A stretch of DNA of 63,774 nucleotides, the filler included, from Collodictyon triciliatum (taxonomy: Eukaryota), in assembly GCA_043381765.1 (NCBI GenBank). It is 8 parts of 8 records of this genome, joined end to end, with 100 filler letters (N's around TTAATTAATTAA, not from the genome) between each part and the next. Parts side by side here need not be neighbours in the genome. Positions count along the whole stretch, not along the records: positions 16,133 to 24,088 come from JBHJMP010003710.1; 7 more parts are not named here. One strand, 5' to 3'. Numbering within the stretch: the stretch's first letter is position 1; each line of letters begins with the position of its first letter. This document shows positions 16,133 through 40,196 of the stretch, piece after piece. A model generated the notes under the pieces. It worked only from the letters and a program-made list of their open reading frames with translations, did not search any database and had not been told where the DNA came from. The position numbers and the translations under genes are program-made.

Positions 16133-19100
16133 TTAGATATTGGATTTGCTTTCAGGTTGGTTTTTGATCTGTTTGCTTTTCTCTTCTCAACTCGGCCTTT
16201 TTCATGGGATTCGCCTATTGGTGGAAAAAAATAAATCCCTCGTTTATACATAGTTTCCTTTATTCGATACAAGTGAATGAAGGTTTTTTAAAAAATCTAC
16301 AGGACGCCGTAGTTGTTGCATCTTGGTTGAAAGCAGTGACACGTGTCGGTTAAGGGGTTCAGGCCAGCAGCGTACGGAATCTGGATTTGTGGCTCATCAA
16401 TATGCAACCGATAGGGTCGAGAATAGTTGCAACTTTTAAGAGGTGCGATTGCCAAGGATTCTGACCTCAATTTGATCGGAGGCCAAATTCTCCCTTGGGG
16501 CGAAAGTCCACGCGACTACCCTGCTCTCCTTTACTATCAGATTCCATTATATTCGTTCATTCTATTAGACTCCAAATTCAATACCCTTGACTTATATATG
16601 TCTAGTATTCAACAGATACCATATAGCAGCCGACAAACCAGCATAACTTCTTCAGCATAGGCATTAGCGGAACCGGCAAGAATATTGTTTATTATTTTTG
16701 CAGACTCTGAAGAAATATACCTTTATTTTTTGAATCAGAAACTACAGTATTACTAAAATTTTTGGAAACATAAGTAATGCATTATCCATTCTTATAATCT
16801 GAAGATAGTCATCCGTTCAACTTTACTCTTTGAAACTCAAAATCATACTTTAATCAACCAGATTCAGGTATGACACATGTTTGGGAAAATCTATATGTAT
16901 TTTTATGATTCCAAATAAACGGTAGATTCTGATAATTTGCTATCTTAGTTAATTTTTACCCTAACATTTCATAAGGCTTAAATGATATTGAGTAATATAT
17001 GAAATAAAAATAACTAAGTTGGAAATAATCAATCATGAATTAATCTAACGATATTAAAGGGGGTTTCATTGATACAAAAAAATCTATACGTAATTAATAC
17101 AACAATTTGACTCTTTTTTAATTATTCCATTCCATTTTGTGCAGGACGGTGGGGATGTTGGCTTTGGTTCGCTAGCCATCGTTTGCATGGACGCTACTTG
17201 GTGGCTGGGTGGCAGGAAGTAGTCGGTAATCAGGAATTGCATCCTGTAGTTTGGCCTGTAGCCCGGGTCTTGTGCTTGGATAAGAAAGACCAGGACAAAA
17301 ATTTCAACTCTTAAAATATCTTGATTATTTCTCAGGATGAACTCAAAAAAACCATTTATAATAGCACTGCATGAACTTTCAGAAAGGGCCCATCTGTCAT
17401 ACCATTTCATCGTACAAAGAACTCTGAAGCTTTCATTTTTTTGGTAATGGATAAGTCATACAGTAAGTTGATCAAGCCGATTTATAGTATCGAAAGGAAA
17501 TTTATCTTAAGGTATCAAGTACCATTAATCTAATTTTTATAATAATTAAAGAAACTCATGATTAAAACTTTGAGGGTATTACAAACAATTGTGCAATCTT
17601 TGGGCCAGATTGACCAAGATTCTGACAGTAAAAAAATATGATTCTTGTCTAATTTTACCTTCTAATTCTTATCATAATTGAAAAGCACGAAAAATTTTAA
17701 ATTTATACGACAGAAAATTCGTCATATGTTTGATATTCAACGATAGAAAAACCAGATACACACACTACAAGTACATGTGTGTATAGCCTAATTTTTAGCA
17801 GATCATCAATCAAACTTCATTCTCAATTTAGGTCTCGTTTTGGTAAATGGTTCAATCTGACAACTTCATAGACCAGCTGAAAAATCGCATTGCTTTATTC
17901 AATCTACCATATTAAGCATTAATTGTTCATCTTCAATCGGAAAATGTTCAAACTAAAGTCATGGGCAAAACTCAGATACAGTTGCAAATGGAAGGGACAA
18001 AAGACAAAATCCGTGGGAAAGGGAACTGTTTCGATCTACTACTTGGAGGAGGGGGAGGGGTGGTGGATCGGCGGCTCCTAGTTTTCCCGATGGTCTGAAG
18101 TAAAGGTCTAAGAACGTGCGGTGGGAGTATTGGGTCGTGTTGTGTGTGGAAGTAAGTATGTCTTTGTCCAGTCCAGTCATTCATGACCAAAAAATAAATA
18201 AAATAATAATATTTGTTGTAAATTTTTGTAATCGAAAGTCATGTATCCTTTTTTGCGGTAAGGAGACTTTATTTAATTTGAAAACGTTGCCTAATTACAA
18301 AAGAAAAAACTTATATAAATACGAATAATTTTTATTAAAAACATTTCAGTTGTAAAACTATTACTAATGATGATAGAACAAAAATCTATAGAATTAAGAA
18401 TTATAATCGGAGTCTGGCCATGCTAGTTATTTCATTATTCAGTTGGTAGATTTAATCCTAACATAAAATACATGGAATCAATATTTTAATACTTACAATA
18501 AATACAATAATATCAGCTATATATTTTCTAATTAATTTTAATCGAGATGAAATGTCTGTCTAAAGCATCTGCATTGCTATGTCGTTGGTATTTGTAATAA
18601 TCTTATTACGTATCACCTTATGAATGCTAAATCTACAAAAAAATTCTTTAAATTACGTATCTACTAGAGAAGCTTAGTTATTTGCATACTCTTAGTATCC
18701 GTATTTTAAATTCCATTTTAATTAAATCAATAGATACACTTTTGCATCAAATGTGAATTAAAAAACCAACTAACCAAAATATGAACCATTATTATGTCCA
18801 AATCGAAAAACACATATCATATCCCCGCTAAAAACCAGTTTGTCGCTGAATGATACACCACCCCTCCCCTTGACCGAACTGCAATCTTTTGTCCACCGCT
18901 TTACGCCCATACCCTTCACCTAACTAGACCTTGTTCGTTTCTCCAAGTGAAATGATTTGTTAGTTTACTGCTCAATAAAGAAACCTATTTGATAATTAAT
19001 CGTTGTTAAATCATCTAAATTAGTTTAATTTTCTCCCTTAAAGATTTAGATGTCGATTTATCAAATCCAAAAAAATGCACCCTCCTCCTTCCAATTCCAA

Positions 19101-20430
19101 ATCAATCAGAGGTAATGAAAAGGTATTTCTTATATGTATTTTTATGTTCTCCCGACTAACCAAGGATATGGTAGACGGTCCACGCCCTTTTTTTGTTTTA
19201 CGATTACCATCATTCAAATATATTTAAAAAAATCCTTTTATGCATACAATATTATTTTCGTATATTTATGTTGATTTCTTAATGATTTATTTATTTAATC
19301 CACCACATACAGTATGCCTTCTATGATTGTTTCATATCAATGATTCTATCATTTTATCAAATCCTTGATATTGTTCGGTTTATTCCTATTCGGTCAAAAT
19401 ATGGCCGAGTACAAGTATTAATGCATACACACTTTTATTGATAATCTATATTATTCATTTTTATCAAACATTCAAAAACAAGGATTCAATTTGTCTGCAT
19501 TGATAGAAATGTAAACCAATTGAATAGCTAAACTTTCAGTTCTAAAATATCTCTTGAAATGATTGTGATTGTAAATTAAATAATATCAATACGTTTTTTT
19601 ATATTTGTATCATAATGAGTTTTAGCTTTTTATAAACACTGATTTTATCTTAGGTTTCGAAGAAACTTAAAAATCTCATGGTTTAGAGCTCAATGAAATA
19701 TAATATTTACATAAAACATATCGTTATTAATAGCCAAAAGAATATAGTCAAATTTTTATCTATATAACTAATCAATGCTTTGCTTTTGATTTGTATAGCT
19801 GGTTTTGATTTAATGAATAATATGAATATGGGAACTGACATACGATTGGATTTAAGATAGTTGGTTGATTTGAATCCACAATTGAGAGCCTTTTTATAGA
19901 GAATGAAATAATCACGATGAAAAAGATACATGAAAATCTATAGTGAAACTGATCGCTAATCACTGAACCTCTTAGAGATGATACCCAGCTCTCAAAAAAC
20001 ATATTTTGGTGTTTCAATCAGTTGTTAATGTAAGTTTACCGAATATTAGGATGAGACTCGTCGCTTGGCCGCCGTTTCCATATACATAGATGCTTGTGCT
20101 TCATGAGTAAGCATAGTTCTAAAACAATTAATAATCCAGCTAACTGAAGGGAGATTTCATATACTCAATTTTAGACTTTTAAATCCAGAACAAATTATAT
20201 CGGAAGCCATTTGGAAGGGCGATATCATTTTTCTCATATAATAATTATTTGTCATTGTCAATCAAACAGGGGTTCTTTAATAATTGATTCAATATAAATT
20301 ATCTAATAATATGGCTGTTTTAACCTCTGGTTGTTTGATTAATTACTGTGTGATTATATGTTTAACACTAATGTGATTCAAATAAATGGTTCTTCTTATA
20401 ACATTTTTCATTATCATGACGAATAACAAT
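16133..20430. repeat. Dispersed duplicated block, copy B (inverted relative to 2560-6890)
   Basis: See copy A. Examples: 19141-19300 matches the reverse complement of ~3720-3870, and 20000-20070 matches ~2940-3010. Cut off by the scaffold start. Confidence 0.92.
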
Positions 20431-21310
20431 TTATACGAATCCAACAACCAAGAACTTTTTTTTCCAATTTGGAACTGACATTATAATTTTAGGAATGACT
20501 AAAGTTCTAGCCGTCACAATGATTTTATGCAAATAGTTCCATTCTCTTTTAATTATTTTAGTCATTAATCAACTCATATGAATCAAAAACTCATGATAGT
20601 CTTATCTATCAGAATTCATTTGTATTTACAATCATACGTTTTAGCTTATCGGTGAATATCCAAAGATGATGAATAATAGATTATTTATCTGGTTTATTTG
20701 ATATTGAAAAATGAGAGAGGATTATAAATAGTGAATTAAGATATATGTGTGTACAAAAAGACAAGTGGTTTACGGATATGAGATTGATTTATTACAAGGA
20801 AAGTAAAAAATATAAATAAGACAGTTCATATGAAAATTATAAAATCAAATAATGAATATAAATTTATACACTAAAAAATTCATTCATTTTTCCTACGCAA
20901 TATGTTTGTGTTGATTTAATTTTATAAATGATGCATTATTTTCATCGTATCAACTTTATATCACATGAAAAATCGATAATATTTGATAAATAGACACAAA
21001 ATTAAGCTTCAATTTAAGAATTACTTTATTTAATACTGAATATTTTTGAAATCATATTTGCTGAATATTCCTATGTTTGGTGAATAAAATATCGGCAGAA
21101 CTGATTATATTCAACTTATACTGAGAAATTGTTGCAATAGAACAGAAATGCACTCATTAGATGAAAAAAGAACTGCTTTCCAACGCGATAATAACTTCGA
21201 ATCGAGAAGGACATCTCCCAAAATTCCTGCAACGTGCGTTTCATAATTAAATCTGTGATAAATACATTTGATTAATTAGTCTTAATTTTAAATATATACC
21301 CAGAAATTCG

Positions 21311-24088
21311 ATGCTTTTGGTTGTGTTTATTGCCATCGTTTTCATTGTTTCATCGGCATCCTCAATTCATCCACGTCAAAGGTATATTTTGATTTATGAA
21401 TATTTATAGAGTACACTTTTGACTCAAATAAGGAAAACAGATGCCAGTATTCAAGAGATGAGTTGCTTTCCATGAAAATCGAAGATGCATTCCAAATTCT
21501 GTTGAGCTACTACGGTGAGACATGTCCTTTGTTAAAAGATAGTGAGGATAACTTTTCAGGGTTGATGAATGGTTGGAAAGATGGAGAATACTCGCTAGAA
21601 AATGGACATGGTGCTGAATGGAATTATGGAAGAAAATTAACATTTAGTAAGGCCGATTTTTATCAAGAAATTCATCCGCCTAAACGAAGTGGAAACAGGG
21701 AACGGGGGTTGGAGAACGAAGAGAACCGAAATGTGGCAGATGGAGATACTGAGACCCAATACGAACTCCTTGTCCAACTCTATGATTTACTTGGCGGCGA
21801 TAATTGGTTTCGGAACACTGGATGGAAGAATGAAAGTATTCCAATATGTGATTGGTATGGAATATCGTGTCATCAGAGTTGTTTGGATGAGGATTATAAG
21901 GTGATTTCTTGAAAAGATAATCATATCTATTGATTTTATTCTTGACATATTTTCTTTTATTTATAGAACAACACATGTCCTATATATGAAGTCAGGATGT
22001 CAGGAAACAACCTTAATGGTGACATTGAAGCTGCCTCTGCAATTTTTGAGAAGCTTCAATTGTTGGATTACTTGGACATGAGCTACAACTTCATTTACGG
22101 AAATCCTCCAGACTTTAATATCCCAAGTATTACGTATCTGAAACTCCATGTGAATCAAATTACAGGAACAGTTCCAATCTTCAGTGGAATCCCAAATGTT
22201 TTAAGAATTTATCTTTACAACAATCGGTTGACTGGTAAATTTTATTTTAATTCCATGTGTTATTGATAAAAACTAACTTTATATTACAGGAACTGTTCCA
22301 AACTTCAGTGGAATTCCAAATGTTTTAAGAATTTATCTTTACAACAATCGGTTGACTGGTAAATTTTATTTTAATTCCATGTGTTACAAGTACAAAGCTA
22401 AATTTATACTACAGGAACAGTTCCAAACTTCAGTGGGGTTCCAAATGTTTTTGAGATATATCTTTACAGCAACCAATTGAATGGTAAGTTTCAATTATTA
22501 TTTTCATGTATTATTGATAAAAACTAACTTTATATTACAGGAACAGTTCCAAACTTCAGTGGAGTTCCAAATCTTGAAAGAATTTATCTTTCCAACAATC
22601 AGTTGACCGGTAATTTATATTATTATTTCATGTAATATTGATGCAAAGCTAACTTTATACAACAGGAACTGTTCCAAACTTCAGTGGAATTCCAAATTCT
22701 TTAGGAATTTATCTTTACAACAATCTATTGGATGGTAAGTTTATTATAATAATTTTATTTATTATTGATGAAAACTAACTTTATACCACAGGAACCGTTC
22801 CAAAATTCAGTGGAATTCCAAATGTTTTAATAATTTACCTTGATAGAAACCGATTGAATGGTGATTCCTATTCATTTTTCCTTCTTTTTTTTTTGATTTT
22901 CATTTTTAACTTAATTTAATGAGTAATTTTAGGCACAATTCCAAACTTTTCATATATTCATAAACTGGAGATTTTTTCTGTCTATGATAATCAACTGGAG
23001 GGAAATGTTCCTGATTTCAAAGATTGCATAAACATCAAGGAAATAGTGTTGTTCCGAAATATGTTGTCAGGCACATTACCGATGTTCAATCTGAATAACC
23101 TGACAAGACTGGATGTGAGTGAAAACCAAATCAGTGGCTCTATACCAGAAAATTGGATATTACCTTCAATTAAATACATCGACTTGTCTTGGAACAAAAT
23201 GAACGGCAGAGTTCCAACCTATTTTCAGGGACTGCCAGAGCTGAAATCACTCGTTTTCTCTCACAACAAATTCTCTGGAAGCATGCCTGATTCGTTCTGG
23301 AATCTGCCCAATCTAGTCACCATTGACTTGAGAAACAATTCGTTTTCAGGAGACATTGGTATTTTTATTGTTCCAGCTTCAGGAAATTACGATTATTTTT
23401 ATGAAAACCTTTTGCTTGATGACAACCAACTCTATGGAGTATTGAAATGGAGGATATTTCAATATGCGGTAAACATAAAAACATTAAGTATTAAAAATAA
23501 TAACATCACCAAGCTTGATGAACTTACAAATCTCTTGAGCTGGACTTACCTTGACCTCACTGGAAATCCGATTGTTGGGAGCATTCCTGAATCATACATA
23601 GGATTTTCAAAGCTTGAATATTTGGGATTAAATACAACATCGATGAATCACGGAACAGCTAATTTTCTTCCTGGTTTTATGAATTTTACGACATCTTTCA
23701 ATCTACAAGATGAAACAAAACGCTACCTTTGTCCTTCCATTATTTCGAAATCTGGTCTGATTGAGTTGGAGGTTGACTTGAATCCAGAATACTATGACTT
23801 TGAATTTTGTAAATGTTTGACTGGATATTTTGGCTTTGGAAATAATTGCGTTCAATGCCCAAGAGGATGTGATTGCCTTGATGGAACGTCCTTGAAATTT
23901 TGTCATGCTTCACCAAGCGTCACCTCTGTGAAATCAATACTGCCGTGTCCACGTCGCGAGTCATGTGATGTGTCCATTCCAGAGAAAATTTCGAATTCAA
24001 ATACGACGGTGGAAATCATAGACCTGTGTCAAGAGGGTTATGAAGGTTATGCCTGCTCAAAATGTCAGAATGGATACGGAAATCAAGG
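21311..24088 (+). CDS. Signal-peptide LRR receptor-like protein (LRR N-cap, LRRs, Cys-rich module); 3'-partial
   Basis: Exons at 21311-21381 (MLLVVFIAIVFIVSSASS), 21441-21900 (N-cap LVQLYDLLGGDNWFRNTGWKNESIPICDWYGISC), 21967-22234, five 69-nt exons, and 22933 to the scaffold end. The last exon has plant-type LxxLxLxxNxLSGxIP repeats, then CKCLTGYFG..CVQCPRGCDC...CQEGYEGYACSKCQNGYG. All junctions are GT-AG and in frame. Confidence 0.92.
22166..22860 (+). repeat. Tandem exon+intron array (~125-nt period), one 23-aa LRR per exon
   Basis: Exons 22290-22358, 22415-22483, 22541-22609, 22666-22734 and 22792-22860 are each 69 nt, phase 1-1. The 55-57 nt introns are homologous, carry CTAAC/CTAAA branch points and end in ACAG. 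Confidence 0.93.
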
Positions 24089-24394
24089 NNNNNNNNNNNN
24101 NNNNNNNNNNNNNNNNNNNNNNNNNNNNNNNNTTAATTAATTAANNNNNNNNNNNNNNNNNNNNNNNNNNNNNNNNNNNNNNNNNNNNAGTGAAAGTCAA
24201 TAAAAAGCGAAAAATTCCACAAAAAACAAAAAAAAAAAATTAATAAAAAAAAAAAACCCAAAAACCAACCCAAAAAAAAAAAAAAAAAAAGAGCCTAAAT
24301 CGTGCCTATGAATATAACTTTACTCGAAGAGAAAAAAAAAAGAAAAAGGAAAGACAAGAGCCAAAGGAAAGAACTCAACTTTGTTTTCTCTTTT

Positions 24395-25810
24395 CAAACA
24401 GTGGGTCTGGTGTTAATGCCCTTGGATATTTCTTTGGAACCCTCTGATTCGTACCTGCATGTATTTTACATATAGTAATATATGTCGTATGACTTATGAT
24501 AAAATTCATTTTTATGCAGTTCGGTTTTCCAGACATCTGTGTTTATATATTATGACCGTTTATCATCATTAATGACCTTTTAAAAAAATAATTGATATGA
24601 GAAAGCAAACAAGTTGAAATTTTCTATTGAACGATTAATCAATAACAAAATTAAATCAAATCAAATAGTATTGAAGATGAAGTGATTTGAGAAGCACAGG
24701 AATTTCCAAAAGGAACGAACCCAAAAAATCGCTCGAAATGCAGTCTTCGGCATCATCTGGATGTGAAAATGTCAGAAAGAAAAATTAGCTGGAAAGCAAA
24801 ACAACTAGAGAGGAGAAAATGGTTAATTAAAGCTAGAAATAAATTCCAAGCATAATACCTGTAGGGTAGGATTATCTGCTAAATGATTTCCATTTCATTA
24901 AAAAAAATACATTATTTAGATGTGTGCTCTTGCCTGTAGCGCCAAGCACAAAGTCACTATCGTATTGGGCTTCGAAATGTACATGTGCATGACTCTCCAT
25001 TCCTGAAGAGGATACATCGGTTGGGGTGGACGAATCCGTCTCTATTTTTTAATTATTATTATTATTTTTAATTCCGTCGTAAGGATATGGGATGTCTCTG
25101 TAAACTAGAAAACTATTATGTCTTTACATTACATATAGGGGGAAAGAGACGTCATAACATATTCGTCGATTTTGTCATATTCGTTTCTCTTTTATTCACT
25201 TTCTTTTATTTTTATTTTTTTAAAAAAAAGAAAAAGAAAAAGAAAAAGAAAAAGAAAAAGAAAAAGAAAAAGAAAAAGAAAAAGAAAAAGAAAAAGAAAA
25301 AGAAAAAGAAAAAGAGAATATATACCTAGACTTGATTTTCGCCCACTGCGGAAGTGAACCGGGTTTCCCGGATGGTAGTTTGACGGTAACGCGCCCTTGA
25401 GAGCAGGCAAAGCTCGCGCTCCCTTCCCTCCAGCTAATTGTGAAGAGATAGACCTTCGCACCAACACAAGCACAAAGTTTATTGGAAAATAACGAGAGAA
25501 AATGATATAAATGACAGAAAAGCGGAAAAGGTGGGAGGACAGTTAAGCGCCCGTCGAGAATGGCACTGACAAAGCGACACATACGAGCGATCTGCTCCGC
25601 TGGGAGGCCGAGTAGACGTTGGTGTTGGTGCAGACGAAGTCATGTCGCGCAATCTCTGCAAATAATAATAATGATAATAATACTGAGTTCGCAAATCTAG
25701 GAGAAGTAGCAGGAAAAGCCTGAGGGAAACAACGGTTCCTGAGTCATAGGCTCTCTCCCACAGCCACAAAAGCACTGTCTCGTTTGCTCAGACTAGTTGG
25801 TTCTGTTGGT
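24395..25810 (-). CDS. Probable multi-exon hypothetical gene (or 3' exons of the upstream LRR gene)
   Basis: GC-richer islands bounded by AG/GT on the minus strand (~25655-25585, 25433-25327, 25043-24935, ~24455-24395). The reading frame could not be resolved and no domain was recognised. Confidence 0.3.
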
Positions 25811-25834: not shown

Positions 25835-25877
<43 letters not shown>

Positions 25878-25880
25878 TTA

Positions 25881-25972
<92 letters not shown>

Positions 25973-26151: not shown

Positions 26152-28000
26152 TCATCCGGACGAGAGAATCAGATTGTGCGAGATGTCAAGCGAGACCAAG
26201 GAGGCCAAGGAGAACACACAACGCGGTATCTCCCTCAACTGGGTGTGTGGCAGCAAAGATTAAAACCGTGCCAATATATATGACTGAGGTATTGACAGCG
26301 AAAAAAAAAAAAAAGGGAAAAAAAGGAAGAAAATAAGGGAGTATCCAACAATCTCATACAAGATGTAAAAGCAAAAGACTGTATTCCAAATGGCACAATT
26401 AATAGCGGAAAGACAACAGCATATGTAGGCGAATTCTTTGTGTTTGGCTATGATTTCATAACTTGTGAACACATAATGACAAAGGGAGAATATGAATACT
26501 TGGTTTTTGCTCAAGCAAAATTTTTGCAACCCCGTGAGAAGAGACATAGAATCTGGAAGTGACTTAAGCTATTTAAAAAAAAAAGTGATTGATAGCTTTC
26601 AACAAAATATTTTTGAGTGCATCGCTTTTCAGGTATATATACAGGGTTCCCTTTGAAGAAAATCAGGGTAAGGGGGGGTTTTCTTCTTCAATTAATACAT
26701 TATGTTGTGTAATTATGTGAGAATAAAACTATAGTGACGAAAAATGAAACGTGACCTTGTTGAATGGGATATAAATGATTCTACTACCTGGTTGTACGAT
26801 ATATCTATCGATGTAAACCCTGTCCATTTATTTATCAAGGATGGCGATGCCGCGAAAGCCGAGTGTGCGCAGATTACATCATAAAGTTCAATTAACTTCA
26901 GTCTTTCAGAGAAAGGTATTTGCATCTTGAAGTCAAGTTGATCGATGTGATTTTGTGATATGGACATAAGGCTTTTAGGAGCCCGTCGAACGTCAGTCAT
27001 TCCTTCGGATTCTATAGACAAGACTCGCAGTTTCCTTAAAAAAGCTAACCCGCTCGGAAGGACGTCAATCTATCAGTTCAGCAGTACGATAAGGATAAGG
27101 TTATATATACATTTATATATTGGTTAAATTCATATGGAAGAAAAACGATTCGATTAATTCGGAACGAAATGCATGACTTACAGGGTTTTCGTGGATGGAA
27201 AGGCTTGTCAATTTGGTCAGGGAGGAAATATCGTCTGGTAAGACCTCGATACAGTTCTTGTGAAGATAGAGCATAACAAGGTTTTTCATTTCCCATACGC
27301 AATTGGGTACCGATGTCATTATATTATCGCTTAAATCTAACATAAAGAGGTTCTGCAGTTGGGATGCGTTGTAAGGGAGGGCATCAATTTTGTTTTCGTT
27401 GAGACAGAGCAGCTGCAGTCTTTTCAGGCGAGAAATACCATCCGGGATAGATGACAAGTTGTTACGACCGAGCCATAATGAAATCAAATTGGACAGTGCG
27501 GATATACCAAACGGCACTCCAGTGATGCTGTTATTTGCTGCGTTGAGTGTATCCAATCTTGTCAATAGCGATACGCCTTGTGGGAGAGACGATAGGAAGC
27601 GTTCATTGTAAAGGCCGAGCTCTCTCAAATTGGTCAGGCATGAAAGGCCCTCTGGCAGTGCAGATAAGCGGTTGCTGCTCAAGTTGAGAACCGTCAGGTT
27701 GGTTAGAGTAGAGACGCAGTCAGGAAGCTCTACAAATGAGTTTCCAAATAGATTAAGCAAAAGCAGGCCTGTCATCAGAGATATCCAATGGGGTAAAAGA
27801 ACAAGAGAGTTTGAGTTTGCAAATAGTTCCTGTAGATGAGGCAGTAAAAGCAGAGACTCAGGCAAGTTGTCGATGGAGCGAACATTGAACGAAAGGTGTG
27901 TGCACTGCCTGAACGGTTTGTCCCTGGGCTGGTATTGCGGATGGAGTTTCTTGAGCGCTTGCAAGGCAATTTCTTCGGGTGTGCTGGGTTTGTTGCCCAT
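26152..28000 (-). CDS. Intracellular LRR protein with N-terminal myristoylation-like motif, multi-exon
   Basis: MGNKPS start, about 9 LRRs in the 28000-27180 exon (e.g. LTNLTVLNLSSNRLSALPEGL), and further exons IDVLPSGLAFLRKLRVLSI, LKSLPDSMSLLTGLQKFCLSKNQ and LREIPRCVFSLASLVSLDISHNLI. The 3' end is uncertain. Confidence 0.8.
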
Positions 28001-28319
28001 GGCTTCTCGGAGGCTCTTACTGCTTTGCTGGTCGCCCTGCTGGGGTAATAGTCGGCTGTGTTTGGGTTGAAAGGTACTTTTAGGTTCGCGGACTCATACT
28101 TATCAACCTTCGTTGCTTTGTTGTTTTTTTGTTTTTTGTTNNNNNNNNNNNNNNNNNNNNNNNNNNNNNNNNNNNNNNNNNNNNNNNNNNNNNNNNNNNN
28201 NNNNNNNNNNNNNNNNNNNNNNNNNGTTTTTTGTCGTTTTTCCCAAAGTTTTTGTTTTATTTTCACAGGTATTTTTTTCATGTGCTATGCAGTCTAGTTT
28301 TGTTCATCTGAAATAAAAT

Positions 28320-31975: not shown

Positions 31976-33406
31976 GAAAAAATCAATAATAAATTAATAA
32001 AGGATTTAGAAAACGATTTATGGTAGTTGTCNNNNNNNNNNNNNNNNNNNNNNNNNNNNNNNNNNNNNNNNNNNNTTAATTAATTAANNNNNNNNNNNNN
32101 NNNNNNNNNNNNNNNNNNNNNNNNNNNNNNNGAAAAAAAGAAAAAAGAAAAAAGAAAAAAGAAAAAAGAAAAAAGAAAAAAGAAAAAAGAAAAAAGAAAA
32201 AAGAAAAAAGAAAAAAGAAAAAAGAAAAGAAAAAGAAGACTCAATTATGATTTTCCCCTTTATTCGACTCAAAGTGCAAAGTACTCATTTAAAATTTAAT
32301 CAAATTATTATACCGATTAACATAAACTAGAAATAATCTCCTTTTGTTAATAATATGTGACTCCAAAAGCAACGAAATTTAATTCTATTGACTGCCTTGA
32401 TGAAAAAATGAGCATAGTTTGCTTCCAGGTCAGGATAATGCATAATTTTTTGGTTACTCTGACACGATTGCTACTCCATTTTCCAAATTTTATTTCATTG
32501 CATGAAACTCATTTGAAAATTGAAAGGACGAGTATGTGTGAAAATTTTATATTCTGCACGATGAGGCAATCATTTTTTTTTTTATTCTTCCTTTCAATTT
32601 TTGTGCAGGACCGTGGGGTCGATAAGGCAATCATAATTTTTTTAGAATATCATCTTCATGATGCCATATACAACTTTACATAGCAGGATTTTTTGAGGAG
32701 GGCATTTTATTAATGACACAGTCCAGCTATTATAGTCGTATTTTTCATTTTTTGGTGAGATATTTCAACAAAATAGTATATTGCTGCTAATTTTATTCAT
32801 AATTGATCATCATATATATCCGTGAGTGTGGCTGTAACAATTCATTATGTGTTGCTCTTCAAGCATTTCATGAACTTCACCTTTTACTCGCGTATCCTTT
32901 AATACAATAGTTCTCACCTTTTCAATTATTTAACAGCAAATGTACATTTCCTTTTAATATATTAGTATTTTAAATGAGCGAATCAAATGATGAATTATAA
33001 TAAGTTCCATAATAAAAAAAAATAATTAGTTCAAAAATCAAGATGGCTTTGTAATAAAAATAGTCATTCAACACAAGTTTTTGTTCAAAGAAAACAGTTA
33101 TCGATCTTCTATAATGATGATATTTTTCATAGGAATTAAATTCGATTCGTAGAGAAATGTATTTATTCAAAATAAAAGTGATGAGGGACTACAACCATCT
33201 CTTCAATTTTCCATATAACAAAAATATATCGCTATTATGGAATCAATGAAATAGGACAAAAATCAAAAAATTATAGTCCTGATTTTTTCGGATATTTTGT
33301 GAATCGGAAAGCTGTTTAAGAGAGCTGGTACTTTAAGTGTGTGTCATCTCTATAAAATATGATGTTTCAGTAGCTCACTAAATTAAGTCCTATTATCAAA
33401 TTAGGA

Positions 33407-36400
33407 ATGAAACCGACACTATTATCATCAATAGTGGCTGCTATACTAATTGGTATGCAAAAATAAATTTCAAAATTTAATCAGATAATTAATTGGTATC
33501 TAAATATTTGTATAAGTATTTCAGTATTCAGCAATTTTTATTTGATCCAGATTATAATACATATTAATGATATATAATACCATAAAATATTGATGCTGAT
33601 CTATCAGACAAAGAGAGGCATTTATTTCACTTGTGATAGATGGGTGTTTTCTCTAAACAAGCAGATTGATGAGTATTGGATATCGATTAGAATGACCGTG
33701 TCTATCATTTTAGATAGTTTCAATAATTTGTAATTTAAAAGATTTTTGTATCATCTTGTGTATTTCAGGGCTAATATCAAGCAACCAGTTGATGCAAGTT
33801 CAAGGACAGGACAGTTTGACACTCACAATAGGCGGGTACAGAAACTACATTTGGAGCGTCGCTGTTACTCCTGATGGTTCAAAGATTGTATCTGGAAGTG
33901 AAGATATGACTGTAAAAATTTGGAATCTTGCTGATGGGTCTTTAATTCGCTCCTTAACTGGGCACACAAACCCTGTTTATGGGGTCGCTGTTTCCCCTGA
34001 CGGGTCAATGATCGCTTCTGGTAGTGGCGATTTGTCAGTAAGAATATGGGATCTTTATGAAGGACGATTAATGGGCATTATGACCGACCACGTCAGAAAA
34101 GTCAGCAGTGTCACCTTTTCTCCTGACGGCTCAAAGATTCTTTCTGGAAGTTGGGATCATAATATCAAAATATGGAATTTTCCTCAATACACCTTGAATC
34201 GTACATTAAACGGGCATACTGATTGGATTAGTGGTGTTACTGTTACCCCAGATGGTTCAAAGATTGTATCTGGGTCTGGTGGTGATTACGACAATTCAGT
34301 AAGAGTTTGGAATTTTTCTGATGGATCTTTAATTTTCTTGGTGAAGGGTCACGTTGGAGTTAGTGGGGTTGCTGTTGCTCCTGATGGTTCAAAATTTGTC
34401 TCTGTTGGAAACGAAGGTACCATAAAAGTTTGGAATCTTTCTGATGGAGCACTACTTCACGCTATGATTGATACTCGTTCGTTTAAAAGTGTTGTTATAT
34501 CCCCCGACAGCCTTACTATTGTCTCTGGTGACGTCGATGGTAGAATCAAAACGTGGGGTCTCTTTGATGGTGCTCTTATCCAAGTATTAACGAGTCATTA
34601 CAGCTGGGTTTATAGTCTCGCTATCACTTCAGATGACTCAAAAATTATTTCTGGGAGTGAAGATAATACAATCAAGATATGGAACCTATCAGACGGTTCA
34701 TTAATTCGTACAGTGACCGCTAATGATGGCGCTGGCAGCTATGGCCATGTTGATATTGTTACAAGCGTCACATTCACCCCTGATAGTTCCAGTATTGTTT
34801 CTGTATCCCGTGATCTTACTGTCAGAGTCTGGAATGTAACAAATGGGTTATTGATTCGTACATTGAGAGGTCACAGTGACTGGGTTAGTAGCGTTGTTAT
34901 TACTCCTGACGGCTCAACTATTATTTCCGGTGCTGGAGGTGGCGCTGATAGTTCTGTCAGACTTTGGAATTATTCGGACGGAGTCTTGATCTACTTAGTC
35001 AAAGGGCATTACGGGGTGGATGGTGTTGCTGTTACCCCGGATGGCTCCATATTCGTGTCCGCTGGGAATGATAGAGTGTTGAAGCTTTGGAATATTTCTA
35101 ATGGAGCCTTAATTAGAACACTGAGCGGTCATAATGGTTCAATCAAAAGTGCCGCTGTAACTCCTGATAGCTTGAAAGTTGTATCTGGAAGTATTGATAA
35201 AACAATAAAAATTTGGAATATATCCGATGGAAATGTGATTCGCACACTGATTGGTCATAATGACGGAGTCAATAGTGTCTTTGTGACCCCTGATGGCTCA
35301 AGGATTGTTTCAGGAAGTAGTGATAACACAATCAAAATTTGGGGTATATCAGATGGAAATCTGATTCGCACACTAATTGGTCACAATGGTGATGTTAATT
35401 GTGTTTTCGTAATCGCTGATGGTTCTAAAATTGTTTCTGGAAGTGCTGACAAGACAGTAAAATTATGGAGTGTTTCAGACGGAGTATTGATTCGTTCATT
35501 AGATGGTCCAGGAGGTCACACGGACTCTGTCAATTCTGTTTCTATTGCACCTGATAGCTCACAGATTATCTCTGGGAGTGCAGATGGTACAATCAAAGTT
35601 TGGGCGATGTGTGGTGCTGGGTTCTTTTACGACTCTTTAATGAAGGCGTGCGCACCATGCAAAGCTGGAAGCTATAGCACTGGAGGAACATCTATATGCA
35701 CTTCATGTCCCTCTGGAACATACAATCCATTAAGTGGTCAATCAGAATGTGCTTCGTGTCCTGTGGGAACCTACAACTCGGAAATCGCGTCAGTAAGTTT
35801 GGATGCTTGCCTTCTATGTCCTATAGGAACATACAACCCATACAATGGTTCAAAAAGTGAAAAATCATGCCTGTTGTGTGGAGCCGGAGCATTCAATCCA
35901 TCAAGTGGTCAATCGGAATGTACTTTATGCCCTGCCGGAACATATAGTACAGAAACGGGTTCAATAAGCAATACCACTTGCCACCTGTGCCCAGTAGGAA
36001 CACACAACCCATCAGCCGGTCAAACATCTTGCCTTATTTGCGAAGCAGGAACATATAGTCCATCCGTTGGCTTAAGCACCAATTGCATCTTGTGTCCTTC
36101 TGGAACATATAATCCAACAATTGGACAGTCAGAATGTATTTCATGTGGAAGTGGATGGAATGGTGACATAACTGGGTCAAAAAGCATTAATGACTGTTTG
36201 TGTCTTCGTTCCACTTATTTAGACTCAAAGTCTAGACAGTGCAAGGAATGTCCGAAAGGGTTCGTGTGCGATGGAAGCAGTCATCTGAAAGTTGAATCAG
36301 GATATTGGCAAGCCCCTAGCTCAAGTGATAAGTATATTGCATACAAGTGCTTAAATGAAGATGCATGCACCGGAGGAAACAATACATGTGCTGATGGTTA

Positions 36401-37685
36401 TACAGGGGTATTATGCGGTACCTGCGATGAAGGCTACGGTAAAACAGGCGGATATTTTTGTACAAAATGCACATCAAGAGAAGTCAATGGATTCTTGGTT
36501 TTTTTGACCATCACAATTCCTTTGGGATTTGTATTTTATATGATAGAGCAATCAAGACAGCCTAAAACAGAAAGTATACAAATTTTAAAGACGCTGGCAA
36601 CACATTTCCAGATTTTGTCGTATCTTGCCAACTTTGATGTCGACTGGAGCTCGGCCATTATTTCGGTGATGAAAATCCCTGCTCTTTTTTCATTTACCCT
36701 ATCGATAGATAGCTACACGAATGAATGTCAGTTTGAAATGTCCATTTATGACAAGGTACTTTACTCGATGATGACCCCTTTTATTTTGATGGCAGTTGTC
36801 ATTTTTATTATTTTCCTGAAGATAATGTGGAAATTAAGGACAGAGCAAATGAAAAAACACGAGATTAAATTCTCTGAATTAAATCAAGAATTTATATTTT
36901 CGATGTTGGTGATGTTATTTTTTGTCCATCCAACAATTACGTCATCAATATCAAATATTTTTGGGTGTGAAGTGCTGGGGGATGAAAGTTACTTGAGGGC
37001 TGACATGTCGATTATGTGTGACAGTCAGACATATCTGTCTTGGAGGGATGCATCTTTGGTTTATGTTGTATTGTATTGCTTCGGAGGGCCATTAGTTCTT
37101 GCTGCATACATGTTTCATGAGAGGTCATCACTGGTTAATCCTTCGTCTAAAATTTACAGCTTACTTAGATTTTTAGTGGATGGATATACAGTAGATTGCT
37201 TTTATTGGGAAATTGTGAGTATGATGCAAAAGCTTATTGTTGTTATCATAAGCGTAACTCTCCTGCCTGTTCTACAAATATATTTTGGCTTGTGGATTTT
37301 AATTTTAAGTGGGATATCGTCTGCTTATTTTGAGCCTTTTATGTCGAGTGTATTGAAGAAATCTCAGATTTATTCCATATCAGTCCTTTACTTTACGATG
37401 ATGACAAGTTTGTTATTCCGCTATATGGATTTGACTAGCTCAACTGAAGTTGTGCTTTTAATTTTAGTTATTCTGTTCAACGGCTTGTTTGCTGGTATGT
37501 CATTGTTTAAGGCCGGACCGTCTGTTCTGATTTCATTCTTTGACAAGATCTACAGAATGGCACGTCTAGTATTTGAAACTGTGATGAATTCATCTATAGT
37601 CATAAACACCAATAAAAAATGGAAAGGATTCAGGGAAGAAAAGGCGATGAAGAATTTTCTGACTGGTTCGGCGCCACTTCTCTAA
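33407..37685 (+). CDS. Signal peptide + 14 WD40 repeats + Cys-rich repeats + multipass membrane domain
   Basis: Exon 1 is 33407-33452 (MKPTLLSSIVAAILI-G), then a phase-1 GTATGC...TTTCAG intron, then exon 2 at 33769-37685. It holds 14 WD repeats, about 8 CxxCPxGTYxP units (GCC2_GCC3/ephrin-receptor-like), CADGYTGVLCGTCDEGYG, about 9 hydrophobic segments including YLRADMSIMC and FLVDGYTVDCFYWEIV, and a short tail. Confidence 0.93.
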
Positions 37686-39915: not shown

Positions 39916-40196
39916 AAAAACAAGGAAACAGATACATGGATGCGGCGTGTGTTCAATCCTGTCGTGATTNNNNNNNNNNNNNNNNNNNNNNNNNNNNNNN
40001 NNNNNNNNNNNNNTTAATTAATTAANNNNNNNNNNNNNNNNNNNNNNNNNNNNNNNNNNNNNNNNNNNNCACCATGCTGTCTCCATAACATAAAAGAAAC
40101 ATTTCAAAATATCATAGGGCTAATTTTCATTTTCCTTTTTCTTTCAATTCTCTTTATCGGTTCACATTTCACGATATCCTGATTTTCCTCCTCCTA

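What the first reader, a model, noticed from the sequence alone, without database searches (positions are those of the whole stretch)
22166..22932. One-LRR-per-exon cassette array with variation around the predicted binding face
Seen: five 69-nt phase-1/phase-1 exons encode GTVPNFSGIPNVLRIYLYNNRLT, GTVPNFSGVPNVFEIYLYSNQLN, GTVPNFSGVPNLERIYLSNNQLT, GTVPNFSGIPNSLGIYLYNNLLD and GTVPKFSGIPNVLIIYLDRNRLN. The N-terminal half is almost invariant, and changes cluster at the x positions of LxxLxLxxNxL. The other LRRs of the same gene sit in long exons. Any cassette can be skipped, duplicated or exchanged without a frameshift. Known analogue: exon-per-repeat shuffling in brown algal LRR-ROCO and NB-ARC-TPR genes. 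Inference: a combinatorial receptor-diversification module.
Basis: partly seen in the sequence, partly recalled or inferred. Interest (0 to 1): 0.78.

Follow-up and report, generated by a model that had tools for sequence, protein, structure and literature searches.

The report
Tandemly duplicated LRR exons, protist receptor
A receptor-like gene of an AT-rich protist has lengthened its leucine-rich-repeat domain by repeatedly duplicating a 125-base exon-plus-intron unit, a known way for such genes to grow, and nothing yet shows that the copies are mixed and matched.

Summary
Five 69-nt exons (22290-22860) are flanked by phase-1 GT..AG introns of 55-57 nt. Each encodes one 23-residue plant-type LRR. 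The repeated unit is exon plus intron (124-126 nt). The introns are as alike (69-89%) as the exons (74-96%). There is also a 251-nt two-unit period, and intron 1 is a recombinant of introns 2 and 3. This is a young germline tandem expansion by unequal crossing-over. Amino-acid changes do cluster at the x positions of LxxLxLxxNxLx (6 of 7 variable against 3 of 16 elsewhere). Their rate (pN 0.29) is about the neutral one (intron distance 0.21-0.23, pS 0.27), so no excess was shown. No RNA contig covered the array, so skipping is untested. No related cassette was found in the rest of the window or in metagenome contigs. The gene is cut by a contig end. It belongs to an LRR, Cys-rich, multi-pass membrane family whose best full-length relatives are Diphylleia rotans transcripts. 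Same-length, same-phase LRR exon arrays are already described in brown algae, Tetrahymena and gonadotropin receptors. This is a new member of a known kind, and the combinatorial function is unproven.

The parts
21234..21303 (+). probable 5'-UTR intron (GT..AG)
   Evidence: The loose end of RNA contig X7 record 22 before 21304 matches window 21220-21233 (read). This is an inference from one metatranscriptome contig.
21311..21381 (+). coding exon 1: ATG and hydrophobic signal-peptide-like N-terminus
   Evidence: Gene model. The hydrophobic stretch was read from the translation; no signal-peptide program was run.
21382..21440 (+). intron (59 nt), spliced in RNA
   Evidence: X7 RNA contig joins 21379 to 21439, skipping 59 nt, GT..AG with cut +2. 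This matches the model.
21441..21900 (+). exon 2: N-terminal domain with LRRNT_2-like cap
   Evidence: Pfam LRRNT_2 scores 18.3 bits, below the cut-off of 20.7.
21967..22234 (+). exon 3: about three LRRs plus array copy 0 (22166-22234) fused to them
   Evidence: Pfam LRR_4 and LRR_1 hits.
22235..22289 (+). array intron 1 (55 nt), a mosaic
   Evidence: Its first 28 nt are identical to intron 2 and its last 30 nt are identical to intron 3.
22290..22358 (+). cassette exon 1 (69 nt, phase 1/1)
   Evidence: It matches copy 0 in 22 of 23 residues.
22359..22414 (+). array intron 2 (56 nt)
22415..22483 (+). cassette exon 2 (69 nt, phase 1/1)
22484..22540 (+). array intron 3 (57 nt)
22541..22609 (+). 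cassette exon 3 (69 nt, phase 1/1)
22610..22665 (+). array intron 4 (56 nt)
22666..22734 (+). cassette exon 4 (69 nt, phase 1/1)
22735..22791 (+). array intron 5 (57 nt)
22792..22860 (+). cassette exon 5 (69 nt, phase 1/1)
22861..22932 (+). intron 6 (72 nt, T-rich), same position in the LRR but not alignable with introns 1-5
   Evidence: The unit model stops 12 nt into this intron.
22933..24088 (+). last visible exon: about ten more LRRs and a Cys-rich module, cut by the contig end
   Evidence: Pfam LRR_8, LRR_4 and LRR_1 above cut-off. The N-run linker starts at 24089.

Best explanation
The array is the product of recent germline tandem duplication. A 125-nt unit, made of one 69-nt LRR exon plus its downstream short intron, was copied by unequal crossing-over or gene conversion inside one gene. 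This includes at least one duplication of a two-unit (251-nt) block and a later exchange between neighbouring units.

The gene encodes a secreted-face receptor-like protein: a signal-peptide-like N-terminus, a cap, about 19 plant-type LRRs and a Cys-rich stalk. By homology the part beyond the contig end is a multi-pass membrane domain. The six copies add a contiguous block of six turns to the LRR solenoid.

The structural half of each repeat (GxVPxFSGxPN) is held by purifying selection. The x positions of the beta-strand and the loop after it drift at about the neutral rate, which gives each turn a different inner-face surface. Because the introns are short, each has its own full set of splice signals, and the gene's other introns are of the same kind, the copies are most likely all spliced in constitutively.

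Shown: the anatomy, the DNA-level duplication and recombination, transcription of the gene and splicing of its first intron. Inferred: constitutive inclusion of the cassettes, the membrane topology, and ligand binding on the concave face.
For: Unit is exon plus intron:
- Six copies lie at 124-126-nt spacing. TRF finds periods of 125 and 251 nt.
- Introns 1-5 are 69-89% identical pairwise, exons 74-96%.
- Mean intron p-distance is 0.21-0.23, against pS 0.27 in the exons. Non-coding and silent sites have therefore diverged alike, as expected for duplicated DNA.

Two-unit block: the unit 251 nt downstream of the reference unit is the most similar one (87% against 71-81%), and the 251-nt blocks are 83% identical.

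Recombination inside the array: a 71-nt exact tract is shared by units 0 and 1, and a 34-nt exact tract is shared by intron 1/exon 1 and intron 3/exon 3. This makes intron 1 a mosaic.

Selection:
- pN/pS is 0.27 in the N-terminal half and 0.17 at the convex x positions.
- It is 0.70 at the concave x positions, where pN is 0.29.

Youth of the array: adjacent copies share 16-22 of 23 residues. In 8 Diphylleia relatives, the best 23-residue window at offset 23 reaches 15 of 23 in one protein and 12 or fewer in the other 7.

Gene reality:
- The frame is open through all splices.
- LRR Pfam hits are above cut-off.
- A metatranscriptome contig is spliced exactly at intron 21382-21440, and two more RNA contigs lie on the last exon with 1-2 differences.

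Family:
- P0001 matches Diphylleia rotans proteins at 36-42% identity over 99-100% of its length.
- Unnamed paralogue-like proteins P0002 and P0003 continue into a hydrophobic segment after the Cys-rich part.
- The closest solved structures are plant LRR receptor ectodomains such as FLS2 and GSO1, E 2e-69 and 5e-69.

Precedent for the mechanism, from passages read: unequal crossing-over building same-length, same-phase LRR exon arrays in Tetrahymena (PMC6564038).
Against: Constitutive splicing is not shown. None of the 3 RNA contigs laid from run X7 touches 22137-23624, and no run holding half or more of the sampled words was found (0 of 11).

The symmetric phase and near-identical splice sites would allow in-frame skipping. 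In the brown-alga precedent such arrays do give several splice variants (PMC11378527, passages).

Contigs of about 85-90% likeness in freshwater metagenome X2 carry 'goes back' joints inside the array (22340 to 22228 and 22531 to 22410). This could mean other arrangements or extra copies in relatives or paralogues.

pN at the concave x positions (0.29) is slightly above the intron distance (0.21-0.23). Weak diversifying selection therefore cannot be excluded with six 69-nt sequences.
Confidence: 0.7

Rival explanations
1. One reading: the cassettes are a combinatorial module. Alternative splicing, by skipping any subset of the five symmetric exons, would yield up to 32 in-frame receptor isoforms with different inner-face surfaces.
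For: All five exons are 69 nt with phase 1 on both sides, and their donors and acceptors are near-identical. Variation is concentrated at the x positions of the strand motif: 6 of 7 vary against 3 of 16 elsewhere. Brown-alga ROCO genes with one-LRR exons have up to nine splice variants (PMC11378527, passages read).
Against: There are no RNA data over the array. The introns are 55-57 nt with complete signals, like the gene's other introns of 59-72 nt. From general knowledge rather than a call, genomes with such short introns favour intron retention over exon skipping. In 15 pairwise comparisons of Trinity isoforms from 7 clusters of the Diphylleia relatives, 0 showed an LRR-sized (23-residue multiple) indel in the LRR region. 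That sample holds only isoforms within 90% clusters, and short-read assemblies handle repeats poorly.
Confidence: 0.1
2. Germline exon shuffling under diversifying selection, as proposed for Ectocarpus ROCO and Tetrahymena LRR genes. Cassettes would be exchanged between many paralogous receptor genes, and copy number would be polymorphic in the population. Diversity would then arise over generations rather than by splicing.
For: Recombination between units is visible in the mosaic intron 1 and the 71-nt exact tract. The family has several members: P0002 and P0003 (unnamed, possibly the same genome) and many Diphylleia genes with about 20-40 LRRs. Contigs of metagenome X2 with rearranged joints and different intron flanks lie on the array at 85-90% likeness. 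pN at the concave x positions is at or slightly above neutral.
Against: No cassette-like sequence lies in the other about 55 kb of the window (nhmmer, E up to 10). An exact-pattern scan of JGI metagenome contigs gave 0 hits, and a protein-guided scan gave 0 relatives. All exchange seen is inside one gene. There is no significant excess of nonsynonymous change. The whole genome was not available.
Confidence: 0.15
3. Assembly artefact: a short-read assembler expanded or mis-joined a repeat, so the true gene has fewer or more copies.
For: The assembly is very fragmented: the window is 8 contigs of about 7.8-8.1 kb joined by linkers. Units 0 and 1 share a 71-nt exact tract.
Against: The six units differ from one another at 4-26% of exon positions and 11-31% of intron positions, so most k-mers are unique. 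The reading frame and all 12 splice sites of the array are intact. A chance mis-join would rarely preserve both.
Confidence: 0.03

Closest known systems
Brown-alga (Ectocarpus, Saccharina) LRR-ROCO genes with one LRR per exon (PMC3341825 and PMC11378527, passages read)
   Same: One LRR per exon. The exons are of equal length and are flanked by introns of one phase, so they can be added or removed in frame. Variation lies on the concave face. The arrays grew by exon duplication or shuffling.
   Different: There the exons are 72 nt in phase 2; here they are 69 nt in phase 1. Those are cytoplasmic LRR-ROC-COR GTPases; this is a signal-peptide-bearing extracellular LRR protein with a Cys-rich module and no ROC/COR Pfam hit. 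Those papers analysed hundreds of exons in many loci, non-coding LRR copies in introns, site-model positive selection and annotated splice variants. Here there is one locus with six copies, and none of those features is shown.
Tetrahymena 90-bp-exon LRR gene arrays (PMC6564038, abstract and passages read)
   Same: Tandem exon-plus-intron units of exact length and uniform phase. They are explained by clonal expansion through unequal crossing-over, and young copies are still alike at the nucleotide level.
   Different: There the exons are 90 nt in phase 2, tens of thousands of them occur in thousands of genes, and they are associated with a LINE-like element. Here five 69-nt exons lie in one gene, and no transposon was examined.
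Gonadotropin (LH/FSH/TSH) receptor LRR exons
   Same: The LRRs of an extracellular receptor domain are encoded by successive in-phase exons, which is taken as evidence for exon duplication. This is stated in PMC11378527 (passage read); the original papers were not read.
   Different: Those are animal 7TM GPCRs with old, diverged exons in phase 2. There is no nucleotide-level similarity between units or their introns.
Plant LRR receptor kinases and receptor-like proteins (FLS2, GSO1, MIK2, PEPR1 ectodomains)
   Same: Same LRR class by sequence: LxxLxLxxNxLxGxIP with a 23-24-residue period. They are the best PDB sequence matches, E 2e-69 to 4e-56, and supply most of the named database hits after the two unnamed close relatives.
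   Different: No kinase domain is seen in the window gene or in its full-length relatives. The C-terminus of the family is a Cys-rich module plus a multi-pass membrane domain. From recall, many plant genes of this class encode the LRR domain in one exon, while SERK-type genes put domains in separate exons (PMC3061892, one passage read).
Diphylleia rotans (CRuMs, Collodictyonidae) LRR, Cys-rich, multi-pass membrane proteins (EukProt transcripts P0123-P0126, P0129, P0268)
   Same: Same family: 36-42% identity over 99-100% of the last exon's product and 42% over exon 3. They share the N-terminal domain, the 23-residue LRRs and the Cys-rich module.
   Different: Their neighbouring LRRs are old: at most 15 of 23 identical in 1 of 8 proteins and 12 or fewer in the other 7. 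Their gene structure is unknown because only transcripts are held.

Membership tests
Plant-specific-type extracellular LRR proteins | LRR Pfam models above the gathering score | tested here: met
   For the last exon: LRR_8 73.2 bits (cut-off 27), LRR_4 70.3 (27), LRR_1 63.3 (20.6). For exon 3: LRR_4 30.1 (27).
Plant-specific-type extracellular LRR proteins | LxxLxLxxNxLxGxIP consensus with a 23-24-residue period | tested here: met
   All six copies fit with a 23-residue period. Positions 4, 6, 9, 11, 13, 15 and 16 are invariant.
Plant-specific-type extracellular LRR proteins | N-terminal cap (LRRNT_2) | tested here: inconclusive
   18.3 bits, E 0.0029, below the cut-off of 20.7.
Plant-specific-type extracellular LRR proteins | Closest solved structures are plant LRR ectodomains | tested here: met
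   FLS2 4mn8 E 2.1e-69, GSO1 6s6q E 5.2e-69, and 81 chains at E up to 1e-10. This is a sequence comparison only. The one fold attempted (exon 3, single sequence) was unusable, with mean pLDDT 41.5.
Exon-per-LRR shuffling arrays of brown-alga ROCO type | Each LRR on its own exon of fixed length, with all flanking introns in one phase | tested here: met
   Five exons of 69 nt with phase 1 on both sides. The length and phase differ from the 72 nt and phase 2 of the described family (PMC11378527).
Exon-per-LRR shuffling arrays of brown-alga ROCO type | ROC-COR GTPase module after the LRRs | tested here: not met
   No ROC/COR hit in the three exon products or in the full-length relatives P0123 and P0124. 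The window gene's own C-terminus is beyond the contig end.
Exon-per-LRR shuffling arrays of brown-alga ROCO type | Related exons shared among many loci, with non-coding copies in introns | tested here: inconclusive
   None in the other 7 contigs of the window and none in the metagenome scans. No whole genome was held.
Exon-per-LRR shuffling arrays of brown-alga ROCO type | Positive selection at concave-face sites | tested here: inconclusive
   Pooled Nei-Gojobori pN/pS is 0.70 at positions 2, 3, 5, 7 and 8. pN is 0.29 against an intron distance of 0.21-0.23. Six sequences of 23 codons give no power for site models.
Exon-per-LRR shuffling arrays of brown-alga ROCO type | Splice variants with different LRR sets | not testable with these tools
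   The only RNA run laid (X7) has no contig on 22137-23624.
Tetrahymena 90-bp-exon LRR arrays | Exactly 90-nt exons with phase-2 introns | tested here: not met
   69 nt and phase 1.
Tetrahymena 90-bp-exon LRR arrays | Exon-plus-intron units multiplied by unequal crossing-over | tested here: met
   Introns are conserved like exons. There are 125- and 251-nt periods and a mosaic intron 1.
LRR, Cys-rich, multi-pass membrane family (Diphylleia type, unnamed) | Homologous LRR block plus Cys-rich module | tested here: met
   E 1.9e-134 to 6.4e-110, 36-42% identity and 99-100% coverage to five Diphylleia proteins.
LRR, Cys-rich, multi-pass membrane family (Diphylleia type, unnamed) | C-terminal multi-pass membrane domain | not testable with these tools
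   The contig ends at 24088 inside the Cys-rich module. P0002 and P0003 run on into a hydrophobic segment that aligns with the start of the Diphylleia membrane domain.
Dscam-type mutually exclusive exon clusters | Alternative exons encode the same part of the protein, and exactly one is used per transcript | not tested
   There is no RNA over the array. The copies are successive solenoid turns, so the natural product contains all of them. Docking and selector RNA pairings were not searched.

The most novel reading that the evidence does not exclude
The five symmetric, near-identical cassettes are skipped or re-paired stochastically or under regulation, or vary in number between cells or strains. 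One gene of a CRuMs-like freshwater protist would then yield a family of LRR receptors with different inner faces. This would be a third, independent case, in another eukaryotic supergroup and on a membrane receptor, of the exon-cassette diversification proposed for brown-alga ROCO and Tetrahymena LRR genes.
Probability: 0.12. Interest if true: 0.6.

Novelty: new member of a known kind. Interest (0 to 1): 0.3.

Why it matters
If the plain reading holds, this is a clean, young example of how LRR domains grow. One repeat plus its intron is copied as a unit, the scaffold half is kept, and the ligand-facing half is free to change. It occurs in a poorly studied protist receptor family (LRR, Cys-rich stalk, multi-pass membrane domain). 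It adds a 69-nt, phase-1 case to the known 72-nt and 90-nt phase-2 cases, which suggests that such arrays arise repeatedly wherever an intron happens to sit between two LRRs. It would matter more only if the cassettes proved to be used combinatorially. One RT-PCR or one long-read cDNA run would settle that.

Tried and rejected
1. Introns born from coding sequence. I tested whether array introns 1-5 derive from the LRR-coding 66 nt just upstream of copy 0. Alignment scores were no better than for other exon windows or shuffles: for intron 1, 121 of 540 windows and 134 of 500 shuffles reached the observed score. The best case was intron 2, with 14 of 540 windows and 107 of 500 shuffles. Rejected. 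Only the 7 nt before copy 0 equal the 3' end of introns 1 and 3.

2. Whole genome. None is held, so there is no genome-wide cassette count.

3. Sequencing runs. All 11 listed runs hold 9% or less of the sampled words. Laying 4 of them gave no RNA cover of the array, so that absence says nothing about expression or splicing of the cassettes. The depth peak at 22881-22973 lies on the T-run of intron 6, and I do not interpret it.

4. Metagenome contigs. The exact cassette pattern gave 0 hits. The protein-guided scan found 441 pattern matches, none of them a relative.

5. Fold of exon 3 (89 aa, single sequence). Mean pLDDT was 41.5, which is unusable. The spliced product of the array could not be given to the fold or family tools, so the six-copy block itself was never folded. 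Placing positions 2, 3, 5, 7 and 8 on the concave face rests on general LRR knowledge and on the passage in PMC3341825.

6. Trinity isoforms of Diphylleia relatives. No LRR-sized indel appeared in 15 comparisons. An apparent 46-residue gap was an end artefact of a fragment.

7. Introner or transposon origin of the introns. No copy of the unit model lies elsewhere in the window. This is a weak test on 62 kb.

8. Earlier findings of this scan. There were none for this genome, sequence or words.

9. Supplementary tables of the papers (exon lists, site-model tables) were not seen.
Full report
WHAT THE WINDOW IS. The 63,774-base window is not one stretch of chromosome. It is eight contigs of about 7.8-8.1 kb in descending length, joined by 100-base linkers of N runs around a stop-in-all-frames motif. 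The finding lies on the contig 16133-24088, which has 32% G+C. No whole genome is held for this window.

THE OBSERVATION.
- Reading 20500-24500 and locating the repeat starts gives six copies of a 69-nt coding unit, not five.
- A gene model with GT..AG introns only keeps the frame open from an ATG at 21311 to the contig end at 24088. The exons are 21311-21381, 21441-21900, 21967-22234, the five 69-nt exons 22290-22358, 22415-22483, 22541-22609, 22666-22734 and 22792-22860, and 22933-24088.
- All five short exons begin and end in phase 1.
- The sixth copy (22166-22234) is the 3' end of the 268-nt exon and has no intron in front of it. It differs from the first cassette at one residue.
- Without splicing the region is closed. 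No ORF of 150 aa or more lies between 21912 and 22923. Four of the six array introns have an in-frame stop, and introns 2 and 4 have lengths that are not multiples of three.
- The repeat is far beyond chance. TRF gives period 125, 5.4 copies and score 858, and period 251, 2.7 copies and score 918. nhmmer gives E 1e-15 to 6e-36 for the six copies.

THE GENE IS REAL AND EXPRESSED. Pfam LRR_8, LRR_4 and LRR_1 score well above their cut-offs on the last exon and on exon 3. An LRRNT_2-like cap scores just below its cut-off. No public run holds half or more of the sampled words of the gene (0 of 11; the best share is 0.09). Laying four runs gave three useful results:
- A lake metatranscriptome contig (X7) is spliced exactly at my intron 21382-21440. 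Its loose 5' end matches 21220-21233, which implies a 5'-UTR intron at 21234-21303.
- Two further RNA contigs lie on the last exon with 1-2 differences.
- Freshwater DNA contigs (X4) match parts of the gene with 0-2 differences.
No RNA contig touches the cassette array, so its splicing pattern is untested.

WHAT THE ARRAY IS.
- The repeated unit is exon plus downstream intron, 124-126 nt.
- Introns 1-5 (55-57 nt) are 69-89% identical pairwise, and the exons are 74-96% identical.
- Mean intron distance is 0.21-0.23, and the synonymous proportion in the exons is 0.27. Non-coding, silent and coding DNA were therefore copied together and have since diverged by about a fifth.
- The unit 251 nt away from the reference is the most similar one (87% against 71-81%), and 251-nt blocks are 83% identical. 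At least one step therefore duplicated two units at once.
- Intron types alternate: introns 1, 3 and 5 against introns 2 and 4.
- Intron 1 is a mosaic. Its first 28 nt lie in a 71-nt exact tract shared with unit 1. Its last 30 nt lie in a 34-nt exact tract shared with intron 3 and exon 3. This is the footprint of unequal crossing-over or gene conversion inside the array.
- The last intron (72 nt, T-rich) sits at the same place in the LRR but does not align with the others.
- My idea that the array introns descend from the LRR-coding sequence upstream of copy 0 failed its test.

SELECTION.
- Nine of the 23 positions vary. In LRR numbering these are 17, 21, 1, 2, 3, 7, 8, 10 and 12.
- Six of the seven x positions of LxxLxLxxNxLx vary, against 3 of 16 others (Fisher p 0.005). 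The other x positions, on the convex side, are nearly fixed, with 1 of 6 varying.
- The rate is not elevated. Pooled Nei-Gojobori pN/pS is 0.53 overall, 0.27 in the N-terminal half, 0.17 at the convex x positions and 0.70 at the concave x positions.
- pN at the concave x positions is 0.29, close to the neutral yardsticks of 0.21-0.27.
- Synonymous differences do occur in the conserved half (pS 0.18), so its constancy is purifying selection and not only youth.
- With six 69-nt sequences this cannot separate relaxed constraint from mild diversifying selection.

THE PROTEIN FAMILY.
- At similar length, the product of the last exon (P0001) finds two unnamed close relatives on short contigs: P0002 at 54% and P0003 at 62% identity. 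After those come plant LRR receptors.
- P0002 and P0003 continue past the Cys-rich module into a hydrophobic segment.
- Among longer proteins, five of the seven best hits, including the top four (E 1.9e-134 to 6.4e-110, 36-42% identity, 99-100% coverage), are Trinity transcripts of Diphylleia rotans. This species belongs to the Collodictyonidae in the CRuMs clade.
- Exon 3 finds a sixth such transcript at 42% identity.
- These proteins show the whole architecture: signal peptide, N-terminal domain, 20-40 LRRs of 23 residues, a Cys-rich module, then a long multi-pass membrane domain with no Pfam match.
- Language-model neighbours of that membrane domain are clusters carrying Ephrin_rec_like or TRP (PF06011). 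This is a lead only.
- A WD40 plus Ephrin_rec_like gene on another contig of the window (33714-37685) shares this C-terminal module (E 2e-8 over about 450 residues).
- The closest solved structures by sequence are plant LRR receptor ectodomains, FLS2 and GSO1.
- In the Diphylleia proteins, neighbouring LRRs are old: the best 23-residue window at offset 23 has 15 identities in one of eight proteins and 12 or fewer in the rest. Adjacent copies here share 16-22. The window's array is therefore a young, local expansion in an old LRR domain.

TESTS OF THE COMBINATORIAL READING.
- Splicing is untested, because no RNA covers the array.
- Copy number has no direct data. Contigs of about 85-90% likeness in metagenome X2 show 'goes back' joints and different intron flanks within the array. 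These may be relatives or paralogues with other arrangements. This is a weak hint.
- Cassettes elsewhere: none in the other seven contigs, none by exact pattern in JGI metagenome contigs and none by protein-guided scan. The genome itself could not be searched.
- Isoforms of the Diphylleia relatives: 0 of 15 comparisons in 7 clusters show an LRR-sized indel. The sample is limited to 90% clusters of a short-read assembly.
- Short introns with their own complete signals argue for constitutive, intron-by-intron splicing. This argument is from general knowledge.

COMPARISON WITH WHAT IS KNOWN. Equal-length, same-phase LRR exon arrays built by duplication of exon-intron units are documented in three systems:
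- Ectocarpus and other brown-alga ROCO genes have 72-nt exons in phase 2, with proposed positive selection on the concave face and several splice variants (PMC3341825 and PMC11378527, passages read).
- Tetrahymena has tens of thousands of 90-nt phase-2 exons, explained by unequal crossing-over (PMC6564038, abstract and passages read).
- The gonadotropin receptors have phase-2 LRR exons (as cited in PMC11378527).
The present case shares the mechanism but not the family. Its exons are 69 nt in phase 1. It is an extracellular receptor-like protein without ROC-COR. It is a single locus with six copies. Two literature searches tied to the relatives' lineage listed no paper on LRR receptors in collodictyonids. 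I claim no more than that about what is in print.

VERDICT. The mechanism that made it, germline tandem duplication and recombination of an exon-intron unit, is well supported (confidence 0.7). The functional inference of a combinatorial diversification module is possible but unsupported (about 0.1 for splicing and 0.15 for shuffling between genes). It is a new member of a known kind, of moderate to low interest.

Noticed in passing
window 8076-8175, 16033-16132, 24089-24188, 32032-32131, 39970-40069, 47909-48008, 55843-55942: 100-base linkers (N runs around a stop-in-all-frames motif) split the window into eight contigs of descending length (about 8.1 to 7.8 kb). Neighbouring genes in the window are therefore not genomic neighbours, and the finding's gene is cut at 24088.
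   Followed up: partly
window 33714-37685 (+): An intron-less 1323-codon ORF with 13 WD40 stretches, four Ephrin_rec_like Cys-rich repeats and a long multi-pass membrane C-terminus. The Cys-rich and membrane part aligns with that of the Diphylleia LRR protein P0124 (E 2e-8). One membrane module therefore seems to carry either LRR or WD40 N-terminal domains.
   Followed up: partly
window 22157-22165 versus 22281-22289 and 22532-22540: The 7 nt of coding sequence just before copy 0 equal the last 7 nt of introns 1 and 3, ending in the acceptor AG. This could be a trace of where the first duplication began, with an exonic ..ACAG|G reused as an acceptor. Beyond these 7 nt, similarity is not above chance.
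   Followed up: partly
window 21234-21303: A probable 70-nt 5'-UTR intron. The loose end of a spliced metatranscriptome contig before 21304 matches 21220-21233.
   Followed up: partly
window 27113-28093 (-): A 326-codon ORF on the next contig with LRRs of another type, all in one ORF without cassette structure.
   Followed up: no
window 61353-62582 (+): An uninterrupted actin ORF of 409 codons from stop to stop on the last contig.
   Followed up: no
window 25225-25315 and 25875-25972: Perfect or near-perfect microsatellites: (AAAAAG) x15 and (TTA) x33. Several contigs also carry long low-complexity ORF-like tracts.
   Followed up: no
protein P0002 (unnamed), residues 1-9: Its annotated N-terminus reads like a translated intron end followed by the same 'GTIP' exon start as window 22933. 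This suggests that the intron before the long LRR exon is conserved in this paralogue-like gene.
   Followed up: no
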